A stretch of 64,000 nucleotides of DNA, from NCBI GenBank assembly GCA_964016885.1, contig OZ024741.1, positions 113,212,001 through 113,276,000 on the forward strand, in the 5' to 3' direction. Positions 2,607 to 51,087 of the stretch are shown here, in pieces; the first letter of the stretch is position 1; each line of letters opens with the position of its first letter. Made by a program: the position numbers and the translations under genes. The notes under the pieces are model-generated. The model saw only the letters and a list, made by a program, of their open reading frames with translations, was not told the DNA's origin and ran no database searches. The DNA is from Eledone cirrhosa. Its lineage: Eukaryota.

Positions 2607-3244
<638 letters not shown>

Positions 3245-5762: not shown

Positions 5763-5771
5763 ATATATATG

Positions 5772-5849
<78 letters not shown>

Positions 5850-5854
5850 CATAC

Positions 5855-5894
<40 letters not shown>

Positions 5895-5916
5895 GTGTAT
5901 ATATATATATATATAC

Positions 5917-6011
<95 letters not shown>

Positions 6012-6012
6012 C

Positions 6013-6060
<48 letters not shown>

Positions 6061-6061
6061 A
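5763..6061. repeat. (TA)n/CATATGTG compound microsatellite
   Basis: The same pattern recurs from 8580. Confidence 0.9.
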
Positions 6062-6125
6062 GGAACAAGTAAGACCCCGACGGCTGAGCTCAAGCCGTTT
6101 CGACGGCTAATTCTGTACAGAATTC

Positions 6126-8579: not shown

Positions 8580-9150
<571 letters not shown>

Positions 9151-9717: not shown

Positions 9718-10300
9718 TTAATAATAATGAAAATATTGTGTACAGTGCTCAGGTGCACTACAACTCATCAAAAGTGTATGTATAGTACATAGGGTAATGT
9801 ACAAACGTCAGGAAAATGAACAGTGCATGAGTCATGATATACACATGTGTGCATGTGTATGGAAGGGGGACATCAGGTGTAGTTTTGGCGAATTTCGGAA
9901 AGCATGAGGGTTTTAAAGGATGCAGTGTCTCAGCAGGTAACAGCTGACGCAGGCAACTTTAAGCATGCTTCAGCATGCTTCAGCAACTTTAAGCATGAAA
10001 ACATGTTTCCGAAAGTCATGGGAGCTGTGCTGTTTTCTGACTTTGTAGGTATGTCCACGTTTGTTAGACACATGGAGATCGAAAAGGTGCTCAGGGTTGT
10101 TGTTGGCGAGATGGTTAATAACTTTGTGGGTGTTTACCAAGTCCATTGCCAGACGTCGGAGCTTCAATGAATCCATGCCCAGGGAAGCAAAGCGTTCAGA
10201 TTATGGTAGGTGTCTGATGGAGGGTATGCACTTGGTTGCACATCTCTGAACAGTTTCCAGGAGGTCAATGTTCTGAGCAAGATAGGGGTTCCAGACTGAC
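9718..10300 (-). mobile_element. CR1/L2-type LINE 3' fragment
   Basis: SLKLRRLAMDLVNTHKVI...RGHTYKV...RKHVF..KV C-terminal CR1 motifs; ends in a (TTA)n tail. Confidence 0.75.
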
Positions 10301-14874: not shown

Positions 14875-15257
14875 AAATTAGTTATGTCTATGTGTGTACG
14901 TATGTAAATATATATATGTATTTTTACAGATATAGCTTTTTCATTCATGCACTTTGGCTACTAGCACTCTTCCTAATGTATATTTATCTATCTATATATA
15001 TATGTATATATATATATATAGATAGATAGATAGATAGATATATTTCTTTATTTACCATAAAGGCATAAAAAGAAGGGACAAATACAAAGGGGGAGTTTAC
15101 ATACAATCGAGTAAAAATGGTATAAAATGAAAATAATCGAAAATAACCTCAAAAGGGAGGGGACGTGATGGGGGTTGCACACACCTCCGAAAAAGTGTGC
15201 AATCCTTTGCCCGGGGAGCACATGGAGAAGGTGCTCCCCTCTCCTTCACTTCTTTAC

Positions 15258-18200
15258 CTACAGGATGGTATACAGAGAAGGCCCATTTACACGAGCCATT
15301 CTCGCCACTATCACCCACCTTTCATAAAACTGCCTGTGGCCAAGCACCTCTCTCTCCATTCTTATCCTTCTTCCGAAGTGATATCGGAAGAAGTAGACCA
15401 GACTATGGCCAGAGAGGAAGTTGCCTGACCTCAGACCTTTCAATCGTGTCCACCAAACAACCTCTTTCAACATGGCTATTACGCACAGAAAAACCACCTT
15501 TGCTTCCTTTGTGAAGAGGGGGGGGGGGCGGTTTGATTGTCATCACGGACTCGGCGGTCAATTGAATCGGCGCCACCCGCGACAGCAGTCGTTCGGCGTA
15601 GCCCCACAGATCAGCCACGCTCGGACATTCCACCAATGCGTGCGCAACGGTTTCTTCGTGACGCACGCATCTAGGGCAAATCTTTTTCGAGGGATCCCTG
15701 CCCGGGCGCCCGTGTCTGTAGAGCCTCTCTCGAACGGGTAGAGCCCCCCGGTAGCACTGCCAGGCTAGTGACTTCTGGAAGTTGTCCATTGGTCCCGGGC
15801 CGAAAGTCCTACCGAACAGGCTGGCCAGTTCGTCCTCTTCCATGTCCAGCGACTCTCCAAGGGTGTCATCGCCCCTGCTAGCCACCAGCCCTTTATAGAA
15901 TGATGAGGTGGATTCTACACCGATGGCCTGGTCCGCTTGCCAGAGAGCCCTGAGCGCCTGAGCACACCCAGTGTGCCAGTCTCCCAGTTTTCCGGATCTT
16001 TGCTTGACCCAGGACTGCAGCTCGGTGAGCGAGACGAGTCTCGGAAAGGCTCGTTTCACGAACGGAGCCCACACCAGTTGACCGGTGAGGAATACCTGTA
16101 GGTGCCGTAACCTTAATGCGTGCCTACGCATCATCAACCACAGCATCCCCAGCTCTCCTTTTGAAGGTTGTTGGCAGCAGATGGATCTTCTCACCATAAG
16201 AGGGCGCTTCTTCCAAAGAAATTGGAAGAGCATGCATTCCATGGTGGTGAGTGTTTCCTTAGGGCAAGGCACGACAGTCAGGCGGTAGTAAGTGACGGAC
16301 GCTATGTAAATGTTCGCCACCTCCGCCCGGCCTTTTAGGGACAGCTTACACTTGGCCCATTTCTGGGTTAGTGCAAACACCTTGTTCGTAACCTCGTCCC
16401 AGTTCTTTTCCACCTGGAGGTCCGGTCCAAACCAGACCCCAAGCAACTTTACTGGGCCCTCCGTCCAGTGTCTGACGACACCGTCGGGAGGCATCGGTCT
16501 CCCTCTCCACGTTCCGAGTTGCAGCCCGATGGATTTTTCCCGGTTCAGTTTCGCTCCTGACAACCTTTCGTAATCCTCCAATAAGGTACCGATCGCCTCG
16601 ATTTCCGAGTCGGTCGATACCATTACTGTTACGTCATCGGCGTAGGCCGACACCGCTTTGCTCAATCCTGGTTCCAGGGGAATACCCTGCGACAACTCTA
16701 ACTTCCTCAGTAAAGGCTCGAGAGTCAATACGTACAGAAGGGAGGAGAGAGGGCACCCCTGTCGAATGGATCGTGTGATTTCGAACGGCTTCGAAAGGTA
16801 GCCGTTCACCTTGATCCTAGAACAGATGTGATTGCTATGTAAGGCAGTGATCCAGCCTCTGAAAACAGGACCAAACCCAGCCGCCACTAGCACCGCATCC
16901 AGGTAACCATGGTCGACCCTATCGAAGGCCTTAGACTGATCCAAGTTGATCAGCGCCCCACCGAAGCCGGGTTTGTTGCCAACCCTCTCTATGATGTATC
17001 GCATGAGGTGGAGGTTATCGTGAATGGACCTGGATGGGATAGCACATGTCTGCGCATCTCCCACCAGGCTACCCACGACAAGCGCCAACCTCTTTGCTAA
17101 CACCTTGGCCAAAATCTTTAACTCTGTGTTTAGCAGGGTTATGGGCCGAAAATTATTTATACTATCCCCCTTGTTCTCGTCCTTCCTCACCAGTGAGACT
17201 ACGCCCTTGGCTACAGAACAAGGAATTCTCCCGTTCTGCTGCCAATTGCAGTAGACCGCTTTGAGGAGTTCGGAGAAGAAGACCGGCATTGCTAAATAAA
17301 GTTCATAAGGTATACCATCGAGACCTGGAGATTTGTGTCTGCTGCATTGGCTCAGCGCATCTCCGATCTCATCAGCCGAGATTGGTCCCTCGCAGGACTC
17401 TGCCTCTTCGCTCGAGAGACGCGGCAGGCCGTCGAGGTATGGACCGAAATCCACGTCGCCGCCCGGACCCTCGCCTCCCCCGAATAATCGGGCAAAGTGC
17501 CTTTGAAAGGCCTCGCACATCTGCTTAGGCTCCCGGATCACCCGTCCATCCTCGTCTTGCAACGACCGGATGGTGGATCGATTTCCACTCTTAGCTTCTG
17601 TCACGCGGGCCCAGCCAACGGCTTTGGCCCCCTCATTACCTAGAGCACGTATTTTACTTCGAATGACGCAGCCTTCGTGCTTTGCATCAAAAAACTGGTT
17701 CAAGGCCGTCCTCGATGCCAGCACTCTGGCCACATCTTCGCTCTTGATTGCCTCTTCTAATTTACCTGTTAATTCTTTCTCGTTTCTATTCCTATCGGCA
17801 GCTAACATCTTGCTATAACTTATTGATTCTGTTCTAATCTCTCTTTTGAGAGATGCCCACCATCGGTTGTTGACGATTGCACCCGTCAACCTCTCCTTAA
17901 CTAATCTGCTAATCTGATTTCTGTAAGTCTCTTTTGCCGGTAAAGACAAATTAAGTTTCCAGTAACCGGGACCCTGTTTATGTGTTTTCTCGAGATTGAC
18001 TACGCAGGTCACTAATTTGTGATCCGTATAGCCAACCGTGCGCATTTCTGGACAGCTTAATATGTCCCTATCCTTACTTCTAACTAAGAATCTATCTAAG
18101 TACGATCTAGATTGACCACTGTGGTTTCTCCAAGTCCAGGTAGGCACAGTTGGAAAATCTAGTCGATATCTATCGACCAAGTTAAAACGGTCGAGTAACC

Positions 18201-18699
18201 CCTTGAGGCTGTTACACCCCCCTCTATTAGGACATGCTCCTGCATAGTCCCAACGTGCATCTAGGATGTCATTCCAATCCCCCGCTAGAAGCAGGGAACG
18301 CGACGGTCCCAGAAAAGTCTCCAAACGCTGGAAGAAGTCGGGCCGTTCAGCTCCGAAAGGGGAGTAGACGGCGACCAGTCTCAAGGCCGCACTTTCACTA
18401 CTGCCAACGTCTAGCACCAACAAACGACCCTCTGGGTCCGAGTGAACAACCTGTATGGCAAGACCCAGGTATTTTTGCAGCAGTACGACAACCCCACCCC
18501 CACCTCCAGGTTGACAGAGAGATGCATGCACCTCAAAGTCATTGAAGGTAGGGGCCAGCTGCCGCACGACGCTGATCCGAGTCTCACAGATAACCATTAC
18601 ATTTATACCACATGACCTGAGGTCATTTAGAAGCTTTGCTTGCTTCCAAGTTGAGCCCAGGCCATGTGCATTCAAACATCCTACTCTTAACACATCCAT
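15258..18699 (-). CDS. Tx1 A ORF2: APE endonuclease, reverse transcriptase, C-terminal Zn finger (one frameshift in the G-run near 15520)
   Basis: LNAHGL, ETR, AGDWN, LDRF, YTDH; FRPITLLN, DQSKAFDRV, RQGCPLS, AYADD; CPRC..ETVAHALVEC. The C-terminus continues in ORF 15258-15497 and matches element B. Confidence 0.9.
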
Positions 18700-18823
18700 G
18701 TGGGCGGCAGAGCCAAAGGAGAGTGTAGAGACCTACCTTTCTGCTTCCCGGGGTTCGGGTCGCATGAATTCCATGGGGACGGGAGTGTTGGGTGAAGGGG
18801 TGTCTTGTGGTGGTGTGGGGTCG

Positions 18824-20638
18824 TCAGTGTGTGGTGGGGTTGGGGTGTTTGGAGTTGTGTTGGGGAGGGGGAGGGGGAAAGCTTTTTAGTAGGACGCGGT
18901 TTATGGGTTTGACAGAGGGTAGTCCTACGTCCTCCTTAAAATCCTTTTTTAGTTTTTGGTAGAGGTTCATTGGGATCTTTATTAATTTTAAATGTGGGTA
19001 GTTTTCTGAAGAAACAAAGTTTACACCTTCGGTTTGTACCGAAGGATTATTGTTTATGAGTTCATTTAATTTATTATTGTTTCTGTTGATGTAAGTATAG
19101 TGTAATGTCTTTTTTTCGGATGGTGTGAGTGTTTCGAAGAGGGGAGGGGCAGGTTTGGTTTTGTTTGTTGCTGGAGGGGTGTTTTGTGTTTTGTTGGATT
19201 GTGTTGACATTTGGGTGGGGATTGTTTGGCCTTGTGTGTTTTGCACATGTTTTCTTTTTTTCCTTTTAATCTGTCTGAAGGACTCCGTTTCTTCCTCCGA
19301 ATTCGTTTTATTATCTTCAGTGTTGGAGGGAAGAGGTATGTTTGCTGGTAATGTTTCCGTGTTGGTTTTCTTTGTGGGGGAGATGGATGTCACTATGTTA
19401 GACTGTGTTGTGTGTTGTGGCTGCGGTGGTTGTGTTGTTTTATTGAGTGAGGGGTTGGGTGGGCCTGTATTTTGTTTTGGGGTAATGTGTTGTGACTGTT
19501 TGTGTTGTGGTGGTGGTGTAGTTTTACTGAGGGACGGGTTGGGTGGGACTGAGTTTTGTTGTTTGTTTATCTGTTGTGGTGGTGGTGGTGGAGTTGGTGT
19601 TGGTAGCAGGGTTTTCTTTTTGTTGAGTTGGGGACAAGCCACCTTCAGGTGCCCTCTGCCTGCACAGATATGACAGGACGGTCTTCTCCCCTCCACGCTA
19701 ATGTTTATATACCCGTGGCCCTCTAATAGGATTCTGTTGGGTATCTGGGCGATGCGTTCAGGCTTCATTTGCACTACAAGCTCTATACCTGTTCCACTGA
19801 ACGCATTGCCTGTGGTTTTCCCAATGGAAATCACGTTGTCATTCGCTGGATCGATGAAGCCAGCTATGAGCCAGCAGTAGTCCACATCTGGCATCATTGC
19901 ATCCAGCCATATGCGTTGAGTTCTTTTACCCATATAAGATGGATAAAAGGTAAAATTTTTCGAACGAATCGGTGACAAAGCACATTTTTTTGCCGCCGAT
20001 TCGTTCTTCATAATAATCGCTAGGCTTCCATACAGTCTGTCTTTTCTTATGAAAGTGGTTTCATTAAGTACTTCTGTGAGTACTGTTTTGATTTGTGTTT
20101 GAGTTGGCTGTTCAGGTTTTTTAGAGGTGTTGTTGATGGTGCGGAAAACGACCGTTCGACTTTCAATGTCTTTGGTGAGTTCTTGAGGCATTTTTACCGA
20201 TAAAATACCATTCTCTCCTTCAGTTATATATTGTTTGGCGTCTGCAATTCTTTGTGCCACATCTGAAATATTTTCAGGTATATATGTCAAAGATTTCTTT
20301 GTTGTTTGTGCAAATGAAATCTTATTGGTGTTGACTTTGTCGTCTGCTTTGCTTTCTGTTATGATGTTGTTTTCAAATGTTATTTTTGTGTTTGTTGTGT
20401 CTTTGTTTGTGGTATTAATATTGTCATGCAATTTTTCAAATTTTTTTTTTTCGTTGTTGGAATCCATGTCCAAATTTGTGTTTTCGTCATTTTTCTCCGC
20501 AGATTCGTCTGTTTTTATTTTATTTTTTCCTTCCTTCTCTATGACGTTAGTTGGGAAGGAAGGGGGGACTAAAGCGTGCGAGCTTACAACTCTTACCGCT
20601 GTCCCCCCACCACTATTTTCGTTAGCTTCGTTTAACAT
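18824..20638 (-). CDS. Tx1 A ORF1 (gag-like nucleic-acid-binding protein); probable true stop at 18733 after a C-run frameshift
   Basis: 604-aa ORF upstream of ORF2; CHICAGRGHLKVAC zinc knuckle; similar to element B ORF1 (RTV.FRT, PSY.G, ISVEG.RP.C). Confidence 0.85.
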   Translation of the reverse strand: MLNEANENSGGGTAVRVVSSHALVPPSFPTNVIEKEGKNKIKTDESAEKNDENTNLDMDSNNEKKKFEKLHDNINTTNKDTTNTKITFENNIITESKADDKVNTNKISFAQTTKKSLTYIPENISDVAQRIADAKQYITEGENGILSVKMPQELTKDIESRTVVFRTINNTSKKPEQPTQTQIKTVLTEVLNETTFIRKDRLYGSLAIIMKNESAAKKCALSPIRSKNFTFYPSYMGKRTQRIWLDAMMPDVDYCWLIAGFIDPANDNVISIGKTTGNAFSGTGIELVVQMKPERIAQIPNRILLEGHGYINISVEGRRPSCHICAGRGHLKVACPQLNKKKTLLPTPTPPPPPQQINKQQNSVPPNPSLSKTTPPPQHKQSQHITPKQNTGPPNPSLNKTTQPPQPQHTTQSNIVTSISPTKKTNTETLPANIPLPSNTEDNKTNSEEETESFRQIKRKKRKHVQNTQGQTIPTQMSTQSNKTQNTPPATNKTKPAPPLFETLTPSEKKTLHYTYINRNNNKLNELINNNPSVQTEGVNFVSSENYPHLKLIKIPMNLYQKLKKDFKEDVGLPSVKPINRVLLKSFPPPPPQHNSKHPNPTTH

Positions 20639-20959
20639 TTCTGTCAGACGATTGAAATTTTTTATGCCACAAAATTTTTAAAAACACGTTTTTCACCCCT
20701 AGGAGGGGTAAAGATGAGCTGACCCACCGCCTGACAGTTCAGACGGGGGGTCAAGCTACACAATAGTATCAAAATTAAAATTGAACTTACAAAATTTCCG
20801 CAATAAATTTGAACAAAACTTCTGCGCGAAGTGAATTACATCTACGCTGTAGAACAGACGACAGCTAGGTTAGATAGATAGATAGATAGATAGAGATGGG
20901 CTATCATGTACTGATGCTAAACTAATCAGGTGACTAAATCTTATTTGTAAACTCAGTTT

Positions 20960-22000: not shown

Positions 22001-22977
22001 TTGCAGCCATGATCCATCTGTCCTTTCAAGGTCTATAAAAACGTACCAGTCCAATACTGGTTTCAACTTTTCGATATATCTCTTTCTCACTTCCTCTCTC
22101 CCACTCTCCTTCTCTGGAAGAATCAGCTGTGTTCAAACCTGGAAAGGGGATGGCCTCCATCAGGTTTAATATCCCCAAGACATGCTGCATGTTACTACTG
22201 TGCCCCTATGACTACACCACGAGTTATGGACACATATATACACATGATATCTAGAACTACATTATCTAATGGCATTCTTGATGGAGATTTCACCACTATT
22301 TCTATTAGGTAGACTGAACATGCCTAAACTCCCATATTAGGATCAAGGTGAGGGTGGTGGTAATATGGAGGGGGGGGAGTGATGGTGTGGGTGATGGCAA
22401 TAATGATCATGATGAGTTGTTAATTTATTTGTTAGGGGACATCGAGGTGTATTCTGCATGTGTGAGAAATGTCATAATTTATGTGAGTAAAACATGGATG
22501 AAAAATGTGGAGCAGCAGAGAAAACTGGGAAGAATAGAAATGGGAATAGTCTAGTGGATGAGCAGTGTATTGCTGAGGGAGAGGAAAACAAACAATAAAT
22601 TGCTGAAGTTAGTGGGAATAGATTCAGTGATTAATGTTGTGAAGAGAAATGGAATGAGCTAGCTGGGTCAGATGGTAAAGGAAGATGAAAGTGATAGGGT
22701 GAGAGGAGTGATGAAAATGAAGGAGGAAGGAAATAGAGGAAGAAGAAAACCACATAAGGTGAGGTGAAAAATCATATAACAAGGTAATGAAAGCCAGGTA
22801 TTTGGCGAAAAAGGTGCATAAGATAGAATAACATTTATGAGGGAGCTCCATAAGGCTTTAGCAGGGAAAATTACATTAACACTTTTGTTGATGTTCAGAT
22901 GGTAGAGTGGTAATGTTTAATTTGAATTTACAAGTTTAACCAAGACTTGGTGGTAGTGATGATGATGAAATAAAAAT

Positions 22978-23868
22978 AATAATGGTTTCTAATTTAGGCA
23001 CAAGACAATTTGTTGGGAGGGAAGTACATCATATAAACCTCAGTACTTGACTGGTAATTTGTTTTATTGATCTTAGAAGGATGAAAAGCAAAGTTGACCG
23101 TAGCAGGATTTGAACTCAGAATGGTAAGGCCCGTAACTCTACGTATCAAAGCATAGCATCCGACCCTCTACTGATACTGCCAATCCACCGCCCTTCTAAT
23201 TCCCATCTAATAATAATAATTTCTAATGTAGAGGCAAAGCAGAAATCTTTATAGCAGAGGGGTTAGTTGATTAAATTATTTCCAGTACTGGATTGGTACT
23301 TTATTATATCAATCTCAGAAGAATAAAATAGTAGGATTTGAATATATAACTAATATGTAACTAATTACCACAAAGATGAGAGAAAAAGTTGACCTTTGTA
23401 GGATGTGAAGTGCTATAAGTCACTGTAAGGTATTTTGATAATAGTTTCTTCTATTGGTACAAAGTAAATAATTTTGGGGAAGGTAAAGACGATTAAATTG
23501 ACCCCACTGGTACTATATTTTATTGAGCCTAGATGGATGAAAGGCAAAGTGGACCTTTGCAGGATTTGAACTCAGAATGTAGAGTGCTGAAACAAATTCT
23601 GAAATGCATTTTGTCTGATGCTCTCATGATTCTACCAATCCAACAGTCTTTGATGATGATGATAATGATGGTTTCTGATTTAGGCTCAAGACCAACGATT
23701 TTGGCGAACGTTGATTAAATCAAGACCAGGGCATTACTGGTGCTTTATTTCATCAACCCTAAAAGGATGAAAGGCAAATCTAGCCACTACGGGAGATGAA
23801 CTTAGAATGTAAAGGGCCATAACCCTATGCTGCAAAATATGTTGTCGACACGCAACCAATACTGCCAA
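22978..23868 (-). mobile_element. Head-to-tail array of ~4 tRNA-derived SINE copies
   Basis: Each ~200-bp unit reads (minus strand) GGCGG..TGGCAG...GAGTTCAAATCC..GGTCAACTTTGCCTTTCATCC..ATAAAGTACCAG...CCTTGTGCC..AGAAA + (TTA/TCA)n. Confidence 0.8.
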
Positions 23869-24372
23869 TTTGAGAAGTGGTATGAGCATAAGCCAGAGTC
23901 GGTGATAGAAAACGATCAAGTGAAGGTGCTATGAGATTTCAGGATACACATGTACAAGAAATTAGAACACAATAGGCTTGACCTGGTGGTTTTTGACAAG
24001 GAAAAAGATCATTCCTGATTGTAGATGTAGCCTGCCCCTTTGACACGAGTGTGCAAGAAAAGGAGTAGGAGAAAATTAACCAATACCAGGATTTAAAGTG
24101 GGAGGTAAAAAGAGGATTTGGAACTGTCATAAGATCAAGTTCATCCCAATTGTCATAGGAGCACTAGGTATTATCTCAAAGAGTTTCCAAGGATGGTTAA
24201 AGAACATTAGTCTAGCCCCCTTTCTTGGAACACTTCAAAAGGCTTGCTTGCTGGGAACAGCAAGAACCCTCCAATACATCCTGAATATCTGAGGCTGCAG
24301 GTAGCGGCTTGATATGCATTTGAACAAACTTTCCAGTTAAATAACATCAATGACTGCAACTCAAAGAATGAT
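23869..24372 (+). mobile_element. R4/Dong-clade 3' fragment (same family as 30497-31833)
   Basis: Highly similar to 31305-31800; restriction-like endonuclease end, IPIVIGALG. Confidence 0.85.
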
Positions 24373-24698
24373 AATTGTTTCTACTTTAGGCACAAGGCCA
24401 GCAATTACCCAGTGCATTACTGGTACTTTATTTTAATGATAATAATAATGATTTCTTTATTAACCACAAGGGTTTACATAAAGTAGACATTAAGGACAGT
24501 GCAGGACAATACAGGACGGTACTAATGGGCATTTCTGGGTGTAAAAAACAAAAACAGAAGATGTAACAAAAATAACAATGAAAAATTCCCCAATAGGGGG
24601 GAGACTTCGGAGGGACATTTGTGGAGAAAGCCCAGTAAAAGGCCACAGTGACCCTGACCACCAAGGCAAGTGCCCTCTCCCAGTTTTCCACCTTTAAT

Positions 24699-27600
24699 TT
24701 ACATATACGTACTCAGAGTAGGCCCATTCACTCGGGCCATTCTTGCTTCTCTCACCCATCTTTCAACAAAATGCTGCTAAGAGAGCACTTCCCTCTCTAC
24801 TCTGATTTTCCTTTTCAAATGAAACTTGAAAAAGTCAATCAGGGCATCACCGAAGAGGTATGTGCTCGTCTTCAGCCCTTTCAAACGTGTCCACCATACT
24901 ATCTCTTTCGCCATGGCCACCAGACAGATAAATACTGCCTGCCCTTCCCAGCTAAAGGAAGAGGGCAGGGCAATCCTCACGATGGACTCAGATGATAGCC
25001 GGATCCGTCCTACACGCGATAGCAGGTGTTCGACATAAACCAACAAGTCAGCAATTTTCGGACACTGGACGAGTGCGTGCAGGACGGTTTCGTCGCCCTG
25101 CGCGCATCTCCGACATGCCCGGCTGACGGCACCTCCATGCCTGTAGAGTTTATCCCGAACTGGCAAGGCTCCTCGGTAGCACTGCCAGGCCAGAGATTTC
25201 TGGAAGTTGTCCATAGGTCCTGGCCCGAAAGTTCTTCCGAAGAGATTGGCTAGTTGATTTTCGTCGACGCCTAGAGTACGTCGTCGCTCTTCCCCTCCAC
25301 TAATCCTCTATAGAACGCCAAGGTGGGGTTTCCACTGATCACATTGCCCGATTGGTCGAGGGCTGTGAGCGCCTGAAGACATTCCAGTCTCCAGGCGCTC
25401 CCTCTCGATCTTCGCTTGACCCAGGACTGCAGCTCCGTCAAGGAAACGAGCTGGGGAAATACGTGTCTAGCAAACGGCGACCACACCTGATCACCGTCGA
25501 GGAAGAGGTGGAGATGTCGTAGCCTGAGCGCGTGTCTGTGCATCATCAGCCACGGCATGCTCAGCCCTCCACGTAGCGGGTGTTGACAGCAGATGGACCG
25601 CCTAAACCATCGGAGCGCGTCCCTTCCACAAAGAGCGAAAGAGCAAACGCTCCAGCACAGTCAGGCGGGGCTTAGGACAAGGTACGACGGTCAGGCGGTA
25701 GCAGATGACAGACGCGATGTACGCGTTAGCCACCTCCGCTTGACCTTTCAGGGATAGCTTCCTCTCCACCCATTTCTGGGTGAGAGAAGCCACCCTGCTC
25801 ATCACCTCGTCCCAGTTTTTGTCCATCTGGAGGTCCGAACCGAACCAGACTCCTAGCAATTTAACCGGTCCGTCCGTCCAGCGTCCGACGACGCTGTTGG
25901 ATGGCATGGACCTGTCTCTCCAGGTGTCGAGCTGCAGGCCCACTGACTTTTCCTGGTTGATCATTGCTCCTGTCACCGCTTCATATTCTCTTAGTGTAGT
26001 GCCGATCGCCTCGATGTGTTTGGCGTTCGACACCACTATGGTGACATCGTCCGCATATGCTGACATGGATCTTCCGCATCCTAGTTCATGCGGGACGCCC
26101 CTCAACGTCTCCAGTTTGTGCAGTAATGGCTCGAGAGTCAATACGTACAAGAGGGACGAGAGGGGACATCCTTGGCGGACCGAGCGCATGATGTTGAACG
26201 GTTCCGAAAGGTGACCGTTCACTCTCACAAAAGAGCAGATGTCGCTGTGCATGGCAGCGATCCAGCCTCTGAAGATGGGCCCAAAGCCAGCCGCCCTCAG
26301 GACTGCCGCTAGGTAACGATGGTCGACCCAATCGAAAGCTTTCGACTGATCTAAATTGATCAAGGACCTACCCGTGCCAGGTTCCCTAGCTACCCTCTCT
26401 ACGATGTATCGCATTAGGTGGAGGTTGTCGTGGATGGATCTGTCGGGAATGGCGCATGTCTGCGCCTCTCCCATGAGACCACCAACGACAAGCGCCAACC
26501 TCTTTGCTAGCACCTTGGCCAAAATCTTGAACTCTGTGTTTAGCAGAGTTATGGGCCTGAAATTATCTATGTTATCCCCCTTGTTCGGATCCTTTCTCAG
26601 CAGTGCCACCGCTCCTCGGCTCACAGAGCTGGGAATTCTCCCGTTCTGTTGCCAGTTGCAGTAGACGTCCGCCAAGAGATCTCCGAACAAGTCTGGCATC
26701 TGTACGTAAAGTTCATAGGGCAGACCATCCAAACCAGGTGATTTACCCCTTGTGCAGCCAGTAATTGCCTCCCGTACTTCAGCAGCTATTATCGGCTTTT
26801 CGCAACACTCCGCCTCAGTGACCGAGATCCGCGGCAGTCTGTCGAGGTAGACACTAAAGTCCATCCCTCGACCCGGCCCACCGCTGCCCCCGAACAGCTG
26901 CGCGAAGTGTCGCTGAAAAGCTTCACACATTTGCGCGGGATCGAGTAGCATGCGCCCGTCGTGGTCCACCAAAGACCGGATCGTGGATTTGTTGCCACGA
27001 CGCGCCTCCGCCACTCGGGCCCATTGAACGGCTTTCATCCCCTCGTGCCTGAGAGCACGCACCCTAGCTCTGACAACGCAGCCTTCGTGCTTTGCATTGA
27101 AGAATTGGTCAAGGGCCAATTTCGCTGCAAGCACGTCGGTCGCGATGCCTTTGCTAAGCGCCTCGTCTAATTTTCTAACTAGTTCTCCCTCTGCTCTATT
27201 TTTCTCTATTGCTAAAGCCTTATATAAACCTAATGGATTCTATTCTAATTGCTCTTTTCAGAGCAAACCACCACTTGTTGTTGATGATGGCCCCGTCAAC
27301 GCCCGCTTAACTAGTTCGCTAATCCGGTCTCTGTAGGCCTTGCGCGCTGGTAAGGACGCGTTTAGCTTCCAGTAGCCGGGTCCTCGTCTATGAAGCCTAT
27401 CTAAGTCAACCACACAGATCACGAATTTGTGGTCCGTGTAGCTGACTATCTTGAATTGTGGACAGCCTATGCTAGACCTATCTATTTCCCTACAAAATAC
27501 TCTATCTAGATATAATCTGGATGACCCTATGCGATTTGTCCAAGTCCACATTGGCACATTCGGAAAATCCAATCGGTACCTGTCAGACAGTTCAAAACGC

Positions 27601-28109
27601 CTTAGCAGGTTGGTGAGGCTCTTGCACCCTCCACCCCTATTCGCTAATCCCACACAGTCCCAGCGTGCATCTAAGATCCCGTTCCAGTCGCCCACTAACA
27701 CTAAAGAGCGGGACGTTCCAAGAAAGGTCTCCAGACGCCTGAAGAAATCAGGCCGCCCTGCTCCTGTCGGGGCATAGACGGCCACTAGCCTGAAAGCTTG
27801 CCCGTCTCCGCTAGTCACGTCCAGCACCACCAACTTACCCTCTGGGTCTAGGAAGATGGCCCGTATGGCAAGATCCAAACCTCTCCGAAAAAGCACAGCA
27901 ACTCCTCCCCCCGATCCAGGACGGCTGGGAGATGCGTACACATCGTAGCCACCGAAGATAGGTACAAAGGCCCATGCTTCGGAGATTCTGGTCTCGCTGA
28001 TGGCCACTACATCTATGTTTAGTGACCTGAGGTCGTTGAGCAGGTGACCCTGCTTCCATGACGACCCCAAGCCACGCGCATTTATGCTGCCTATTCTGAG
28101 TGAGGTCAT
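24699..28109 (-). pseudogene. Tx1 B ORF2 (APE-RT-Zn), disrupted by several stops and frameshifts
   Basis: Segments 27258-28109, 25602-27134, 25271-25558, 24777-25214; VGDWN, YTDH, RQGCPLS, AYADD, CRRC..ETVLHALVQC. Confidence 0.9.
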
Positions 28110-28143
28110 GTTTAAAGGGAGTGGAAAAGATGGGAAAGACCAC

Positions 28144-30257
28144 TTACCGTACTTTTCGTAGAGGAAGAATGGTTTCTCCATCCCTTTTCACTTGATCGTC
28201 TGGTGAAGGGACCGTTGAATCGTCCCTTCGGCTGGTCGTCGGCTCTTCTATGAGTATGTCCGAATATACTCTCCGGTTGAGAGTCCCTCCTAGGTCTCTG
28301 AAATCACCAACTGCGTTGGGGAATTTCGTTTTAATGTTTGTGTATTGTTTCTGTGCTATTTTTACCAGTCTTATGTTCGCTGGCGTTTTGATTGGTACTG
28401 GTATTATGTAGTCATACTGTGAAATGTCTGTGTGTTCAATTATGTAAGTCATTAGTTTCTTGTTGTTTGTATTTATTGCCGTGCATTTGTTTTTCTGGGG
28501 GTGGGGTGTGGTTCTGCTATTTTCTTGTCGTTGTTGCTGGGTGTGTGTGTTTTGTTGTTGTGTTTGCGATGTTGGTGCTTGTGGTGGTGGTGTTGAAGGT
28601 GTTGTTGTTGTTGGCGGTGGGGTTGTCGCCGGTGGTGATGGTGGTGCTAGTGTGGGTGGTGATGATGTTGGTGGTGTTGCTGCTGTGAGTCTCTTTGCAG
28701 TAGCCTTTACCCTTTTTTCATTTCTTTCCTCCCTTTTCGAAGGCGACGATGCGCTGCTTCTGCGTTTGTGCCTTCTTACGACCTTTGGCCATCCCTCTCC
28801 CACCTCACACTCCATGTCTGATTCTGTGAGGTCGGGTAGGGGTACCAGCTCCACTCTTTCACTTGTTGTTGTTGGTGATGTTTGCAGTGGAGTCTCTGTT
28901 GGAGCTGCAGTTGGTATTACTGTTGTTGTTGTTAATACTTCCACTGCTGCTGCTGTTCTTGATTTCCGTGGCATGGGTATGGGTGCCACCGACCTATCGT
29001 TCCTGGTTGCCGCTTGTCCTGTTGCTGGTAGCCGTGGAGCCGGTTTCGGAAGGAGGGGGGTTTTCTCCTTTCTCAGGATCTTCTCGTTGCAGAAAGCCCT
29101 GAGGTGAGTCTTCGATCCACAGCGAAAGCATTTCGGGCGTTTGCCCTCAACACTTATGGGCAGTTGAGTGCCGTTATCGAAGTCTATCACATCCGGGATG
29201 GCTTCGATGCACTCTTGGTTGGTTTGGATTAACATCTCAATGGAGGTGCCGACCCATTCTTCTCTTACTTTTTTCTGTACTTGCAGTACAGTTGTTTTGT
29301 CCTCGATTCCGACGAGGACAGACGCGGCCAGCCAAGAAGGGGGAGGACGTGTGTCAGTTTGACCCTCACAATTTTTTGCCCGCAGTAGGAGGGCACCAAC
29401 ACCATTTCCTCGCTCCTTAGGGTCACTAAAGATTGAGCCTTTGCTTCCCGGGGTGTGGCAAAAAGCACGTCTACGGTGGCATATTTCTTGCCTCGGGTGA
29501 TATGCGTTTTCCGCTGCCACACAGACCCTAAGGCTTTTTGTATTTGAGCCTCTGTGGCTCTTTCAACCCTACGGGATTTTGTGCTTACTGTACGGTACGT
29601 GACCGTACAGTGCTGTTGCGTTTCGAAAAATTTTTCGGCTGCCTTGCAGATTGCTCGGTGTTCAGTTTTTGTCACCATCTTCTTTGCTTCCTGTAATTCC
29701 TCATTTGTTTTAAGAATGGTTTCCAGGTTCTTTGCGATACCTGCAAACGAGATTGGTTTTTCTTTGTTGTTGTTGTTGTTGTTGTGATCGTCAGAGCTGC
29801 TGTTACTTTTGTTGTTGCTGCTGTTACTTTTGTTGTTGCTGCTGGTACTACGACTGCCGCCGCCGCTGTTGCTGTGGTTGTTGTTGTTGTTGTTGCTGCT
29901 GCTGTTGCTGCTGCTGTTGCTGTTGCTGCTTATGCTGTTGTTGTTTATGCTGCTGCTGTTGTTTTCCTTGTCACTGTTGCTGCTGCTGCTGTTATTACGG
30001 CTGCTACTGCTATTATTCATGAAGTCAGACGAATGAAATGGGTTTTCGTATTTACCGCACACCTTTTTCGTCGTTGTCGTCGTCGTGGGGAAATGTTCCA
30101 CGTTTTGCACGTGATTTTGGAAACTATTTTTCTTTACTGGCATCGCTTGCGAAAGAGAAGGGAGGGAGAGAGACGATCTTCTCTCTGGTGTAGTGACGGT
30201 TGAGGAAGAAGACGGAATGAGTGGGAATGACTTGTGAAAATTCTTTTTTGTAGCCAT
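28144..30257 (-). pseudogene. Tx1 B ORF1, frameshifted near 29345; poly-Asn/Ser tract and CCHC knuckle
   Basis: Overlapping ORFs 29265-30290 and 28144-29520; CFRCGSKTHLRAFC. Confidence 0.82.
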
Positions 30258-30496
30258 GTTTTTTTTTGGTTTAAAATAAATATTGGGCACAAAACCCCAA
30301 TAAGCGGTTATTTAACCCCGAAGGGCCAAATAACGGGAAGAAAGAGCCCTCTCACGAGGAGGAGGGTGTTTTTGTCAGCAATTTGGTTAAAGTTTTAAAC
30401 AATTTACAATTGTTATAGCGGTTAAAATTTACAATACCTTACAGAGCCGAGTCTCCGTCAAACATGGCATTCAATAATAATAATAATAATAATAAT

Positions 30497-31833
30497 AATT
30501 GACATTGAAGAAGGATACAAGTATTTGGGTATTCTGGAGGCTGATGACATCAAGAACAAAAAAATGAAGGAATTGATAAGATCTGAATACATTCGGAGAG
30601 TAAGGAGCGTATTAAAGTCACATCTGAACAGTAGGAATGCCATAAGTGCAGTAAATTCCCGAGCTGTGTTTATTATTAGGTACAGTGTGGGAATTCTGAG
30701 ATGGAATGTTGCTGAACAAAAAGAAATGGATAGGAAGACTAGGAAACTATTGACTATCTACAACATGTTCCACAAGAGGAGTGATGTCGATAGACTCTAC
30801 TTAAGGAGATCTGAAGGCGGAAGAGGTCTTATCAGCATAGAGGACTGTATTCAGATGGAGAAAAACAACCTACACAAATACGTGACCGATAGTAAGGAGC
30901 CAATGCTCAGAATTGTACTGAAGGAGAGGACAATAGACCAGGGGATGTCTAAGGAGGAAATAACAACGAGGAGAAAGAGCAGCCTTCATGAAAAATCCCT
31001 TCATAGTACCTTCTTTGAGAAAACTGAATTCAGTGATCCACAGACATGGAACTGGTTGAGAAGAGGAGACCTTAAAAAGGCTACAGAAGGAATGCTAATG
31101 GCTGCGCAAGAGCAGGCCCTCAAAACGAAGTGGCTGAAACACCATATTTACAGTGCAGGATCTGTGGAAAGAGAGAGGAGACTGTGGCTCACATTGTATC
31201 CGAGTGTAAACACCTAGCCCAGACTCACTATAAGGGCTGGAGACATGATGTGATGGGCTGGATGATCCACTGGCACCTATGGAAAGTAAACAATTTACCA
31301 CATTCTGAGAAATGGTATGAACATAAGCCAGAGTCGGTGATAGAAAACGATCAGGTGAAGGTGCTGTGGGATTTTAGTATACAGACGGACAAGAAACTGG
31401 AACACAATAGACCTGACCTGGTGGTTTTGGACAAAGAAAAAAGATTGTGCCTGATTGTGGATGTGGCCTGCCCATTCGACACGAGAGTGCAAGAGAAGGA
31501 GAGGGAGAAAATTAACCGATACCAGGACTTAAAGTGGGAGGTAAAAAGGATTTGGAACTGCCATGAAGTCAAAGTGGTCCCGATTGTCATAGGCGTACTA
31601 GGTACTATCTCAAGGAGTTTCCAGGGATGGTTAAAGAAGATTAGTCCAGCCCCACTTTTTGGAACACTTCAAAAGGCATGCTTGCTTGGAACAGCAAGAA
31701 CCCTCCGATACGTCCTGAATATTTGAGGCTGCAGGTAGCAGCTTGATATTCATTTCAACAAACATTCCAGTTAAATAACAACAATGACTGAGACTCAAAG
31801 AACAGTAATAATAATAATAATAATAATAATAAT
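30497..31833 (+). mobile_element. R4/Dong-clade retrotransposon, family A, 5'-truncated, (TAA)n tail
   Basis: YKYLG, RLYLRRSEGGRGL, AAQEQAL, CRIC...ETVAHIVSEC, RHD, RPDLV...DVACP, EKINRYQDL. Confidence 0.9.
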
Positions 31834-33577
31834 ATGACAAAACCATTAATCTCTTGTTCTACATGGATGACCTGAAACTATTTGCAAAAATCATGAACAA
31901 TTGCAAGGGCTATTATCCACTGTGGAGCAGTTCAGTGATGACATTAAAATGGAGTTTGGACTAAATAAATGCGCCAAAGAAACGTTCACCAGAGGAAAGC
32001 TGCTGAAAAGTTCAGACATTAATCTTGATCGGGGGGAATGTGATAAGAGAACTTGATCAAGAGGAAACTTACAAATATCTAGGTGTTTGTGAAGGAGACG
32101 GAATCAAGCACTCGACAATGAGGGAAAGGATAAGGAAGGAATGTTACCGCAGAGTAAGAGCAATCTTAAGAACGGAATTGAATGCAAGGAATAGGATCGA
32201 TGCCATAAACACGCTTGCCATACCAGTAGTAACCTACAGTTACAATGTCATCAACTGGTCAAGCACAGATATCCGTAGGCTTGATACAAAAATTAGAAAA
32301 TTCTTAACCATGCACAGAATGCATCACCCTAAGGCAGATACAGATAGAATATATCTCCCTAGGAAAGAAGGAGGACGTGGGTTAATCCAATTAGATATTG
32401 CGTTGAAAACTGCAACAATTGGATTATCTACATATCTAAGGGAATTACATGATTGGATGATCAAACTCGTTTTGAAACACGAAAGCATCAAAAGATCATA
32501 TTCCATTACAAAAGATGCACAAAGATACAGTAATGGACTACAAATTTCAGAAGTCCCATTTACTGCTGAAATGGAAAACACAGAAAAAGCAAAGCAGGTA
32601 AAAGTAACTGCAAAGAAAGAACGGCTACAGAAACTGGCTAAGAAATGGCAAGAAAAGCCTCTGTATGGAAGATACCCAGAAAGAGCTAACAATCCTGATG
32701 TTGACAAAACTTTAACCCATCAGTGGTTGGCATCCTCTGGACTGAAATCGGAGACTCAAGGACTAATTATATCAGCACATGATCAGTGTCTGCCAACAAA
32801 AAATTACCAAGCCAACATAATAAAAAATGGATGCAACCCATAATGCTGTGTATGTAAAAAACAACCAGAGACCATTAATCATATAATTTCAATGTGCAGT
32901 CCTATAGCTCCAACCGAATACCTAAACAGGCATAACAGAGCTGCACAAGACATACATTGTATAATGTGTAAGCATTTTGACCTGCCCCATTAAAAGAATT
33001 GGTGGGAGCATCAACCACTTTCCATACTTGAAAAAGATCACATCTCAATCTTGTGGAACTTTAGCATCTAAACAGACTGAAAAATAGATGCAAATAGACC
33101 TGATATAATACTGAAGGACTTTAAAAAGAGGGTATGCCTGCTAATTGATATGTCCGTTCCAATAGACAAGAATGTATCTATAAAAACATTTGAAAAATTG
33201 AGCAAGTATAAGGACCTGGAGATAGAAATTGGAAAAATGTGGAAATTGAGAACTAAAACAATACCAGTGGTTGTAGGCGCTCTAGGAATGATACCTAAGG
33301 GGTCTTATGATTACTTATCACAAATCCCAGGAAACCCACATATAGGAGAAATACAAAAGATAGTACTAATGGGAACTGCCCATATACTAAGGAAGATTCT
33401 GTCAATATAAGTACATCACAAGTCTAAACACCTAAAGATGCATGTGTGTGTATGTATGTTCTTTCTTGAACATGGCGGACCTTGTTGTCTCTTGAGGTTA
33501 CTGGTTGTGACTTGGTGATAACACGTATGAACATAAAGCAAGATAAATGGAACTATAATAATAATAATAATAATAAT
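31834..33577 (+). mobile_element. R4/Dong-clade retrotransposon, family B, 5'-truncated and decayed, (TAA)n tail
   Basis: FYMDDLKL, YKYLG, RIYLPRKEGGRGL, RPDI, EKLSKYKDL, PVVVGALG. Confidence 0.9.
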
Positions 33578-34455
33578 GATTTCTAGTATAGGCACAAGGC
33601 CAGTAATTTGGAGGGAAGGGAAAGTCAATTAAATCGACCCCTGTACGTTACTGGTGCTTTATTTTATCAACCACGTAAGGATGAAAGGCAAAGTTAACCT
33701 CGGCGTGATTTGAACCCAGACCGTAAAGGGCCGTAACTCTATTCTTAAAAGCATAGTGTCTGACTCTCTATTGATACTGCCAAATCACCGCCCTTAATAA
33801 TAATAATTGTTTCTACTTTTGGCACAAGGCCAGCAATTACCCAGTGCATTACTGGTACTTTATTTTATCGACCCTGTAAGGATGAAAGGCAAAGTTAACC
33901 TCAGCGGGATTTGAACTCATACCATAAAGTGCCGTAACTCTTTGCTGCAAAGCATGGCGTCCGACCCTCTACTGATACTGCCAATCCACCGTTTCTACTT
34001 GTGGCACAAGGCCAGCAATTATTCCAACGCATTACTGGTACTTTATTTTATCAACCCCCATAAGGATGAAATGTATAGTTAACCTTGGCAGGATTTGAAC
34101 TCAGAACGTAAAGGGCCATAGCTCAATGCCACAAAGCATGTTGTCCGATCCTCTACCGATACTGACAATCAAATAATTGTTTCTACTTTTGGCACAAGCC
34201 AGCAAATACCCAGTACATTACTGGTACTTTATTTTATCGACCCCGGAAGGATGAAAAGCAAAGTTAACCTCGCCGGGATTTGAACTCAGACCGAAAAGGG
34301 ATGTAAGCTGCAAAGTCACAATGGCACATCTGATTTAGGCTCAATGGCACAAGGCCAGAAAATTGATCTCAGTGCATTACAGGTACTTTAATTTATCAAC
34401 CTCATAAAGATGAAAGGCAAAGCTAACCTCGGCATGATTTCAACTCAGAACGTAA
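33578..34455 (-). mobile_element. Head-to-tail array of ~5 tRNA-derived SINE copies (same family as 22978-23868)
   Basis: Repeated GGCACAAGGCCAG..ACTGGTACTTTATTTTATC..GGATGAAAGGCAAAGTTAACCT..GATTTGAACTC units. Confidence 0.85.
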
Positions 34456-34514
34456 AAAGCTGTAAATGGTATATGTGTATTTGTTGTTTTAAAGCAACTT
34501 TGATGGTATATCTG

Positions 34515-34945
34515 ATTATGATGGTAAACAGTTGATACTGATGATGATGATGATGATGATTGGTTGTGATAATGATGATGATGGTGATGATGGTGGAGAT
34601 GGTTATGGTGATCAGGATGATGATGATATTGATGGTTATGATGATTGTGATGAGGATGGTGTTGATGATGAGGATAATGGTGATGATGGAGATAATGGTG
34701 ATGATGATGATGATGATCATCATCATCATCATGATCATCATCTTTATAATGTTGACAATGGTGATGATATTTTTAGACAGCAAACCACAGTCAATAAACA
34801 ACTATGGTGATAATGCTACTGATATGATGATATCGATATTCCTGACTACTATAGCTAATAGCTGTCAATAAGCAGTTATGATAATGTTGATAATGATAAT
34901 GTTGATGATAATGATAATGGGGGGTGATAATGTGATGATGGGTCA
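34515..34945. repeat. Degenerate (GAT)n low-complexity tract
   Basis: Direct reading. Confidence 0.85.
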
Positions 34946-46511: not shown

Positions 46512-46555
<44 letters not shown>

Positions 46556-46659
46556 TATTGAAATTTCCGTTGAAAACAGAAAAGGTCATAGAAGTGAAGA
46601 GTGCTCTATGTAAGTACCAGAGCAAAATTTAATGCATAAAAATCAATACAATATAATTA

Positions 46660-46729
46660 CCTCATTACCAGAGGTTTCCCGAATGAGGCGAATACGAAAG
46701 AAACGTCTTCATTCGTTCGTCAGACGAGG
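46660..46729 (-). ncRNA. Type I hammerhead ribozyme in the 3' pLTR
   Basis: CCTCGT-CTGACGA-A-CGAATGA...TCATTCG-G-GAAACC tct GGTA-ATGAGG. Confidence 0.8.
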
Positions 46730-48062
46730 CAATATAAAACATGGCTAAATACTTGGAAAGTCTCAAGAAAAGCAAAAAAATTATATAAATATAGACAAAT
46801 GAATTACAATAGCCATATGAAATATAAAAAAATCTTTCAAGAAATATAGTTAGGTGTGTGTATATGTATGTATATACGCTCACAGATGTACATATATGTG
46901 TATGTACAAATGTATACGTATAGTGAAAAAGTGTGCATAAATATATATGTTAGGGCAAATGTATCTGTGTATCTGTAAATTACAGACAGACATGATGTGG
47001 TTTTCTGTTTGGCAGGTACACAGAAAAAATAGGGTAATAGATACATTATAAGAATATGAAGGCACGCGTATAAACACACGCACATACACTTATATGCGGA
47101 AGTAAAAGAGGTAAGGGTGTGTAATAATTAAAAGAAAGTATCAATCTCGATATATTTATAAAAATGGAACAATAATTTAGAAAGAAAAAATTAAAGAAAA
47201 GAAGACAAACAAGGTACACGCATACACACACACACGTATATCTACAAGAAACGTATATCTATAAGAAATATATATATATACACGCAAAAAAACGTGCAGA
47301 CAAAAGCGTATGCAAGCACATCTACACACACAGGATACACATATATACGCATATACGCCTCGCCCCATGTATATCTATTCACGCGCACGCACGCGACTGT
47401 ATACGCACACACACACACACACACACACACAAAAAACACAAAAATATACATGCTTATATACACACGCACACTTACAGATCCATACATTCGATACGTACAC
47501 ACACACACATACTTACACTCACGCATATTGACCTGTTTGCATGCACACGCATGAAAATGAGGATGTAAAAAAAGGAAGAAAAAAAAACAAAAAAAAAAAC
47601 ATGTAAAAACACGGATATAAAGACACATATACATACACATATATATATATATATATATACACACGCACATACGTAGGCGCTCGTGTACATATATAGAAAG
47701 TATACACACATTAAGGCGTTCAGACACATAGATACAGGTTGTAAAAAACTTGTGGATAAGTGAGTACAAATATAAAATTATAAGATTGGCTGCGAAAAAA
47801 TAAAAAATAAAACTAAAAAATATCTGGGGTGGAAAACACAAGTGAACTCTGTAATCAGTTAGTGAAGAAAATAGGGAAGTAAAAAGTGGAAAGTGAAGAT
47901 ATTAGGTAAGTGAATCGGAGAATAAAGGGGGGGGGGGGTTATTAGTGGATGTGAAGAAAAATAAAAAAATAAAAAAATATATAAAAATAAAAATGAAATT
48001 AATAATAAGGATAAAAATGAAAGTAAATCAGAAAGGGTAGTTATAAAGAGAATAATAAGAGT

Positions 48063-50199: not shown

Positions 50200-50422
50200 G
50201 TTCAGTATTGGTTTAAAATCCTATGACTGAAGAGTGCTCGACTTTAAAAGGGCTGGAAGGTGCCAATCTCATAAAGATGTAGAATATGCTGCGATCATTC
50301 CCTTGGGAGCTGTATAAGTATTGAAATTTCCGTTGAAAACAGAAAAGGTCATAGAAGTGAAGAGTGCTCTATGTAAGTACCAGAGCAAAATTTAATGTAT
50401 AAAAGTCAATACAATATAATTA

Positions 50423-50492
50423 CCTCATTACCAGAGGTTTCCCGAATGAGGCGAATACGAAAGAAACGTCTTCATTCGTTCGTCAGACGAGG
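50423..50492 (-). ncRNA. Type I hammerhead ribozyme in the 5' pLTR
   Basis: Identical to 46660-46729. Confidence 0.8.
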
Positions 50493-51087
50493 CAATATAA
50501 AACATGGCTAAATACTTGGAAAGTCTCATCAAGAAAAGCAAAAAAATTATATAAATATAGACAAATGAATTACAATAGCCATATGAAATATAAAAAAATC
50601 TTTCAAGAAATATAGTTAGGTGTGTGTATATGTATGTATATACACTCACAGATGTACATATATGTGTATGTACAAATGTATACGTATAGTGAAAAAGTGT
50701 GCGTAAATATATATGTTAGGGCAAATGTATCTGTGTATCTGTAAATTACAGACAGACATGATGTGGTTTTCTGTTTGGCAGGTACACAGAAAAAATAGGG
50801 TAATAGATACATTATAAGAATATGAAGGCACGCGTATAAACACACCCACACGCACATACACTTATATGCGGAAGTAAAAGAGGTAAGGGTGTGTAATAAT
50901 TAAAAGAAAGTATCAATCTCGATATATTTATAAAAATGGAACAATAATTTAGAAAGAAAAAATTAAAGAAAAGAAGACAAACAAGGTACACGCATACACA
51001 CACACACGTATATCTACAAGAAACGTATATCTATAAGAAATATATATATATACACGCAAAAAAACGTGCAGACAAAAGCGTATGCAA

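What the first reader, a model, noticed from the sequence alone, without database searches (positions are those of the whole stretch)
22978..34455. tRNA-SINE whose 3' end mimics a Tx1 LINE, building head-to-tail arrays in a (TAA)n landing pad
Seen: about ten copies (one partial) of one tRNA-SINE lie head-to-tail on the minus strand, most ending in (TTA/TCA)n, with Tx1 B inserted among them in the same orientation. The SINE copy at 33578 ends CCTTGTG-cctatact-AGAAATCATTATT and Tx1 B ends CCTTGTG-gttaataa-AGAAATCATTATT: same motifs, same 8-nt spacing. Known: SINEs borrow the 3' end of their partner LINE. Inference: this SINE is mobilised by a Tx1-family enzyme and inherits its (TTA)n targeting, so each insertion regenerates a target. 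I do not know of a described microsatellite-targeting SINE/Tx1 pair, but could not search.
Basis: partly seen in the sequence, partly recalled or inferred. Interest (0 to 1): 0.75.

Follow-up and report, generated by a model that had tools for sequence, protein, structure and literature searches.

The report
SINE likely riding Tx1-type LINEs
A very common short jumping repeat in this animal genome ends in the same short motif, lands at the same ATT-type sites and leaves target duplications of similar length as a group of long jumping elements that sit in TTA repeats, so it likely borrows their copying enzyme, though it is far less choosy about repeats than they are.

Summary
Mostly real, with corrections. 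Tx1 B is (ATT)n-specific (26 of 30 5' ends follow at least 4 pure units). The SINE is not microsatellite-specific: in 1 Mb of evenly spaced samples it inserts at Y|ATTAT(T) with 9-22 nt duplications (50 of 97), and only 4 of 50 targets hold 4 or more ATT units. It chains head-to-tail genome-wide (25 same-strand neighbours, 0 opposite, 2.6 expected) by re-using its duplicated target, not by DNA duplication. Its tail shares a C-CTTGT-G hairpin with base-pair swaps, and its spacing, with four Tx1-type families. Two Tx1 copies show 18-nt duplications starting T|ATTA. The CR1 rival fails on tail and leaves no duplication. A Tx1-type partner is likely; Tx1 B itself is not singled out. Mobilisation is untested. 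This scan noted the same pairing at least seven times elsewhere in this genome.

The parts
22970..23195 (-). SINE copy, full length, long subfamily, three ATT units
23208..23326 (-). SINE 3' part, old and diverged, four ATT units
23436..23645 (-). SINE copy, old
23655..23869 (-). SINE copy, old, (ATC/ATT)n tail
23871..24368 (+). 3' fragment of Dong-like (restriction-like endonuclease) LINE, tail to tail with the next SINE
   Evidence: 87% identical to 31306-31802
24365..24435 (-). 5'-truncated SINE of the short subfamily, flanked on both sides by the same 9 nt (likely target duplication)
   Evidence: sequence
24451..30472 (-). Tx1 B: full-length L1/Tx1-type LINE, about 6.0 kb, frames interrupted; ORF1 with one CCHC knuckle, ORF2 with APE endonuclease (27258-28187), RT (25602-27239) and zf-RVT (24777-25307)
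24451..24476 (-). Tx1 B 3' signal: predicted 4-bp stem with CTTGT loop, then 16 nt to the (ATT)n run
30473..30499 (.). (AAT)9 tract between the Tx1 B 5' end and a Dong-like fragment
30500..31805 (+). 5'-truncated Dong-like LINE, family A
   Evidence: weak R2 endonuclease matches, E 0.005-0.008; ends at (TAA)n
31806..31834 (.). (TAA)9.7 tract
31835..33555 (+). 5'-truncated Dong-like LINE, family B
33556..33579 (.). (TAA)n tract shared tail to tail by Dong-like B (+) and the SINE (-)
33578..33795 (-).
33795..33991 (-). SINE copy, short subfamily, four ATT units
33992..34168 (-). SINE copy, short subfamily, no ATT tail
34172..34306 (-). 5'-truncated SINE, short subfamily
34342..34466 (-). 5'-truncated SINE, no ATT tail
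34539..34735 (.). degenerate (TGA)n tract upstream of the second cluster

Best explanation
The SINE is likely copied by the ORF2 protein of this genome's ATT-targeting L1/Tx1-type LINEs (a group that includes Tx1 B), which is predicted to recognise a small 3' hairpin that both carry. Shown: shared C-CTTGT-G motif and spacing; SINE target Y|ATTAT(T) with 9-22 nt duplications; Tx1 copies inside (ATT)n, two with 18-nt duplications; head-to-tail chains made of unlike copies. Inferred: ORF2 binds the hairpin, nicks the bottom strand at 5'-ATAAT/R-3' (a T-purine step, as recalled for L1), and primes on the AUU end of the RNA about 16 nt past the loop. The second nick about 15-18 nt away duplicates the ATTAT-led site on both sides, so later copies land beside earlier ones in the same orientation. 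The window is a pile-up where Tx1-type LINEs and the SINE (minus) and Dong-like LINEs (plus) used the same TAA/TTA tracts. Which Tx1 family carries the SINE is unresolved.
For: Tail: last 25 nt of the 33578 copy match Tx1 B 16, C 17, D 14, A-type 17, CR1 2. Stem pair 2 is C-G in all four Tx1 families and G-C in 44 of 53 SINE tails; pair 3 is A-T in B and G-C in A, C, D and the SINE; loop CTTGT in 47 of 53. Footprint: duplications in 50 of 97 SINE copies against 4.4% of 2000 mismatched pairs, median 15, mode 18; pyrimidine before ATTAT in 43 of 45 non-chain sites against 58% background, p 1.5e-8. Two Tx1 D copies in imperfect repeats have 18-nt duplications starting T|ATTA; one has a 107-nt 5' inversion. 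Ten of 30 Tx1 B 3' ends are followed directly by a same-strand SINE. CR1 with (ATT)n tail: no duplication of 8 nt or more in 26 junctions. Ages overlap: short SINE subfamily 6.9% from its majority; Tx1 B pieces 88.5-94.9% identical to the window copy.
Against: The shared tail is only about 25 nt at 56-68% identity, with a weak predicted stem (-2.3 to -5.4 kcal/mol). No LINE carrying the SINE's own G-C stem was found: two exact-pattern searches gave 8 hits, 7 in SINE bodies and 1 with no clear body upstream. Target stringency differs: 26 of 30 Tx1 B 5' ends follow 4 or more ATT units, against 4 of 50 SINE targets. Tx1 duplications were measurable in only 2 of 121 tail matches scanned, none of family B. 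LINE families were sampled from about 1 Mb plus targeted loci, so a rarer or extinct partner is not excluded. No mobilisation assay.
Confidence: 0.78

Rival explanations
2. The partner is an unsampled or extinct LINE (an older Tx1/L1 lineage with relaxed targeting, or another clade); today's TTA-specific families are only relatives.
For: No exact tail donor found; SINE targeting is looser than that of any Tx1 family sampled; older SINE copies are 25-35% diverged; a divergent Tx1-type copy lacked its 3' end and could not be checked.
Against: Young SINE copies (3% from majority) keep the hairpin and overlap in age with B and D; Tx1 D duplications equal the SINE's modal length. If the donor is an older Tx1 lineage this differs from the best explanation only in detail.
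Confidence: 0.2
3. The CR1 family with an (ATT)n tail, or an RTE family, mobilises the SINE; the Tx1 likeness is convergence.
For: CR1 ends in (ATT)n with a similar short run; RTE is abundant here; CR1 and RTE supply most known SINE tails (PMC3747384, passages).
Against: CR1 tail 2 of 25 identity and no duplications in 26 junctions. RTE, RTE-X-like, I-like and Dong-like tails show no match (the last read by eye for RTE-X-like and I-like). The RTE signature (duplication starting with T, T stretch 10 nt upstream; PMC6007223 abstract) is absent.
Confidence: 0.06
4. The arrays are DNA-level tandem duplicates (SINE-derived satellite).
For: TRF reports a 184-nt period at 33802-34300.
Against: Neighbouring full copies are 67-83% alike, as dispersed copies are (mean 80%); they belong to different subfamilies and scatter in the tree; genome-wide neighbours 0.80 against 0.78 for random pairs; 5'-truncated units and repeated target duplications between units.
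Confidence: 0.03

Closest known systems
SINEU / Tx1-Mar of crocodilians (PMC4494074; passages and section 14 read)
   Same: SINE inferred to be moved by a Tx1 family from shared target preference; tandem copies sandwiching a target duplication; SINE preference often weaker than the LINE's.
   Different: SINEU has snRNA heads and poly(A) tails and targets a Mariner transposon; here the head has Pol III A/B-box motifs, the tail shares a hairpin with the LINE, and the target is ATT-based.
Kibi, Koshi and crocodilian (TTCC)n/(TTTC)n Tx1 families (PMC4494074, PMC3812793; passages)
   Same: APE-type Tx1 LINEs confined to one microsatellite.
   Different: Repeat unit here is (TTA)n for families B, C, D and (TATC)n for family A; in those passages TAA is listed only for Dong.
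Stringent L1-clade pairs: maize LINE1-1_ZM with ZmSINE2/3, Chlamydomonas L1-1_CR with SINEX-3_CR (PMC3747384; passages)
   Same: [quoted passage not shown]
   Different: Plant and algal, poly(A)-ended, 50-80 nt shared; here animal, ATT-ended, about 25 nt shared.
Dong (R4 clade), TAA-targeting (PMC3812793; passage)
   Same: Plus-strand fragments end in (TAA)n and carry a restriction-like endonuclease-type region; Dong-R4 is listed as recently active in Octopus vulgaris (PMC13282606).
   Different: Clade assignment here rests on weak R2 matches and the tail; not tested by tree.
MetaSINEs (PMC4824008; passages) and octopus OR1/OR2 SINEs (cited there and in PMC4758252; original paper not read)
   Same: tRNA-type head, central body, variable tail, mollusc host; partner LINEs of MetaSINEs stated as unknown.
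   Different: Domain identity not tested; the published alignments are figures I could not read.

Membership tests
SINE (tRNA-derived) | Short, non-coding, dispersed, high copy | tested here: met
   190-230 nt; 163 hits of 45 bits or more in 100 x 10 kb
SINE (tRNA-derived) | Target duplications and 5' truncations of retrotransposition | tested here: met
   50 of 97 with 9-22 nt duplications; truncated copies with duplications
SINE (tRNA-derived) | tRNA-derived head with Pol III boxes | tested here: inconclusive
   A- and B-box-like motifs seen in the sequence; no ARAGORN or Rfam tRNA hit
SINE (tRNA-derived) | Pol III transcription | not tested
   no RNA data examined
L1 group LINE | Two ORFs; ORF2 with APE endonuclease then RT; closest to L1 | tested here: met
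   a D-family ORF2 hits human L1 ORF2p at E 1e-56, R2 at 1e-21; B and D RT regions 73% identical
L1 group LINE | Long target duplications, 5' truncation and inversion (features recalled) | tested here: met
   family D only: two 18-nt duplications, one 107-nt inversion
Tx1 clade | RT tree groups with Tx1, Kibi, Koshi rather than L1 | not testable with these tools
no named Tx1 references available; one search gave no informative names.
Tx1 clade | Target sequence specificity | tested here: met
   26 of 30 B 5' ends after 4 or more ATT units, the other four after interrupted runs; 14 of 14 3' ends found in 20 loci chosen by 5' end run into ATT
Stringent SINE/LINE pair | Shared 3' tail sequence and stem-loop | tested here: met
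   short and weak but with pair swaps
Stringent SINE/LINE pair | Same insertion footprint | tested here: met
   Y|ATTA start and 18-nt mode in SINE and two Tx1 D copies; n = 2 for the LINE
Stringent SINE/LINE pair | Mobilisation in trans depends on the tail | not testable with these tools
   needs a cell assay
Microsatellite-specific element (SINE) | Most insertions inside the repeat | tested here: not met
   4 of 50 targets with 4 or more ATT units, 11 of 50 with 3 or more
CR1-dependent SINE | Tail and footprint like the CR1 | tested here: not met
RTE-dependent SINE | Duplication starts with T, T stretch about 10 nt upstream | tested here: not met
   48 of 50 start with A; no T peak near -10 in 45 sites
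MetaSINE | 66-bp Meta domain | not tested
   consensus is in figures; supplement file 1 not searchable

The most novel reading that the evidence does not exclude
An animal Tx1-type lineage has kept stringent, hairpin-based RNA choice while radiating onto different microsatellites ((TTA)n, (TATC)n), and a SINE of roughly 300,000 copies captured that hairpin and spread with relaxed aim. It would be the first tail-sharing SINE partner of an animal L1-group LINE, and a natural system in which RNA recognition and DNA target choice can be pulled apart.
Probability: 0.5. Interest if true: 0.65.

Novelty: new variant of a known kind. Interest (0 to 1): 0.5.

Why it matters
Animal L1-group LINEs are taken to choose RNA loosely by poly(A); the review read counts only three tail-sharing SINEs for the clade, in plants and an alga. 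A tail-sharing animal case would extend stringent recognition to Tx1-type elements and name the engine behind a major repeat of this genome (98 tails per Mb sampled, roughly 290,000 copies by extrapolation). The TTA-specific families, some with naturally open ORF2 frames, offer a test of how APE endonucleases pick microsatellites. It is mobile-element biology with clear precedents, not a new class of system.

Tried and rejected
ARAGORN and Rfam found no tRNA match for the head. The ORF at 48550-50220 was searched in the genome and is unrelated. Two exact patterns for a LINE with the SINE's stem found none. A homologue search gave no useful names; the protein atlas gave no result. In one search the Tx1 B row and the 33578 row, and the 33807 row, were off register by one base and are not used. 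In one search the automatic 5'-neighbour labels mistook two Tx1 C tails for SINE tails; read by eye the counts are 6 SINE tails and 9 Tx1 tails in 30 loci (three of these loci look like duplicates). The 3' tail count (30 of 30) is biased because the query held part of the repeat, so carry the targeting claim. Two or three of the 25 same-strand neighbours are split hits of one copy. Of 16 candidate duplications, 14 were low-complexity, chance or SINE matches and were dropped. A divergent Tx1-type copy lacked its 3' half. Rejected: DNA tandem duplication, CR1 partner, RTE partner, strict microsatellite targeting of the SINE.
Full report
Setting. The window lies in a 3.0-Gb animal genome; 'octopus-like' is my recall of the repeat content, not a tool result.

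What is there. An HMM search with the 33578 copy gives ten minus-strand hits between 22970 and 34466, four of them partial. They form two clusters. Between and within them lie Tx1 B (24451-30472, minus) and three plus-strand LINE fragments ending in (TAA)n, with weak matches to R2 restriction-like endonuclease regions; I call them Dong-like because TAA targeting is described for Dong (PMC3812793, passage). Eight of ten copies end in at least two ATT/ATC units.

Tx1 B is a repeat-specific LINE. It has an APE endonuclease, RT and zf-RVT and one CCHC knuckle in ORF1. A sister ORF2 matches human L1 ORF2p far better than R2. The Tx1 clade label could not be tested by tree. A search with its 5' end, holding only two bases of repeat, gave 1635 candidates, 40 scored, 30 fetched (one is the window's copy, three look like duplicates): 26 of 30 follow at least four pure ATT units and the other four follow interrupted runs. 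In 20 of these loci extended downstream, 14 3' ends were found and all run into ATT. Two more TTA-type families (C, D) and a (TATC)n family (A) turned up; several D copies have open ORF2 frames of 1073-1150 aa.

The SINE's target. I took 100 evenly spaced 10-kb stretches, weighted to the large chromosomes. Of 214 hits, 163 scored 45 bits or more, 98 had a recognisable tail and 97 had usable flanks. Fifty of 97 have a 9-22 nt target duplication (median 15, mode 18), against 4.4% for mismatched flank pairs. Duplications begin ATTAT(T); the base before is C or T in 43 of 45 sites not preceded by another SINE tail, against 58% for ATTAT at large (p 1.5e-8). Only 4 of 50 targets hold four or more ATT units, 11 hold three or more. 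So the SINE prefers a short, degenerate version of the Tx1 target. It is not microsatellite-specific.

Chains. Among 188 hits, 25 neighbours within 40 bases are on the same strand and none on the opposite strand; random placement gives 2.6 (two or three are split hits). Neighbours are no more alike than random pairs, 0.80 against 0.78. In the window, units come from different subfamilies and scatter in a tree with 57 dispersed copies. Locus L300 shows the mechanism: one 18-nt non-repeat target appears three times around two SINE copies that are 87% alike. This mirrors tandem SINEU-3 copies sandwiching a duplication (PMC4494074, section 14).

The tail. All four Tx1-type families and the SINE have a 5-nt loop closed by C-G, with the ATT run 16 nt downstream (17 in D). 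The second pair is C-G in the LINEs and G-C in the SINE; the third is A-T in B and G-C in the rest. Over the last 25 nt the 33578 copy matches B at 16, C 17, D 14, A-type 17 and CR1 2. The stem is short and weak, and no LINE with the SINE's exact stem was found. Tx1 B is not favoured over its sisters.

Footprints of candidate partners. The CR1 with an (ATT)n tail, present in the window at 9729-9910, left no duplication of 8 nt or more at 26 junctions (30 loci, one misoriented and three not truncated within the locus). RTE, RTE-X-like, I-like and Dong-like tails do not match, and the RTE signature (PMC6007223, abstract only) is absent. Tx1 duplications are hidden in pure repeats, but of 121 tail matches scanned two D copies in imperfect repeats show 18-nt duplications beginning T|ATTA. 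One sits in a SINE tail and has a 107-nt 5' inversion, a feature I recall as typical of L1. Ten of 30 Tx1 B 3' ends are followed by a same-strand SINE, four by another Tx1 and seven by a Dong-like 3' end on the other strand.

Mechanism. Shown: shared motif, spacing, target start, duplication length, orientation bias. Inferred: ORF2 binds the hairpin, nicks at ATAAT/purine on the bottom strand, primes on the RNA's AUU end and duplicates the site, so each insertion leaves two new targets. Why the SINE is less strict than the LINEs is unexplained; an older, looser relative may have made most copies.

Literature. Read: PMC13282606 (part 1 of 3 and passages), PMC4758252, PMC3812793, PMC3747384, PMC5786205 (passages), PMC4494074 (passages and section 14), PMC4824008 (passages; one supplement searched, file 1 not available and may bear on SINE identity), PMC6007223 (abstract). 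Eight searches showed no paper describing this pair or a TTA-specific Tx1; Repbase, Dfam and most subscription papers were not searchable, and the 1994 octopus SINE paper was not read. The scan's own notes report the same pairing in seven other places of this genome and the TTA-specific LINE in an eighth; they are unchecked notes and are not counted as evidence.

Verdict. New variant of a known kind; interest 0.5.

Noticed in passing
window about 15050-20900 (-): Tx1 A: second L1/Tx1-type LINE with an open 1109-aa ORF2 frame, flanked on both sides by (TATC)n; same hairpin-type tail, different microsatellite.
   Followed up: partly
window 9729-9910 (-) and upstream: CR1-type LINE 3' end with an (ATT)n tail; the family leaves no target duplication.
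   Followed up: yes
window 23871-24368, 30500-31805, 31835-33555 (+); loci L012, L018, L021, L023, L025, L028, L029: Dong-like LINEs and TTA-type Tx1 families use the same tracts in opposite orientation, often tail to tail: two endonuclease classes converging on one microsatellite.
   Followed up: partly
L246 (minus strand), about 107 nt at the 5' junction: 5'-inverted Tx1 D copy with an 18-nt duplication, inserted in a SINE tail.
   Followed up: yes
L300:3387-3860 (-): One 18-nt target repeated three times around two different SINE copies, with a third SINE 3' piece beyond.
   Followed up: yes
G000:C4:350731457-350774156: Five Tx1 B 5'-end hits spaced about 6 or 12 kb apart on one strand: a head-to-tail LINE stack or a segmental repeat.
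   Followed up: no
window 2923-8888: Tandem duplication of about 2.8 kb (98% identical) holding an RTE-type LINE fragment; another copy at 60014-61670.
   Followed up: no
window 46550-51087: Penelope-like element by my reading of the translation (556-aa frame at 48550-50220, many copies at about 95% identity) between 770-nt direct repeats.
   Followed up: partly
window 56805-63731 (-): hAT-type transposase fragments (Dimer_Tnp_hAT, DUF4371).
   Followed up: no
L107 near 5055 (-): A further CTTGT-loop tail with a 6-bp stem after an RTE (TGA)n run; parent element not identified.
   Followed up: no
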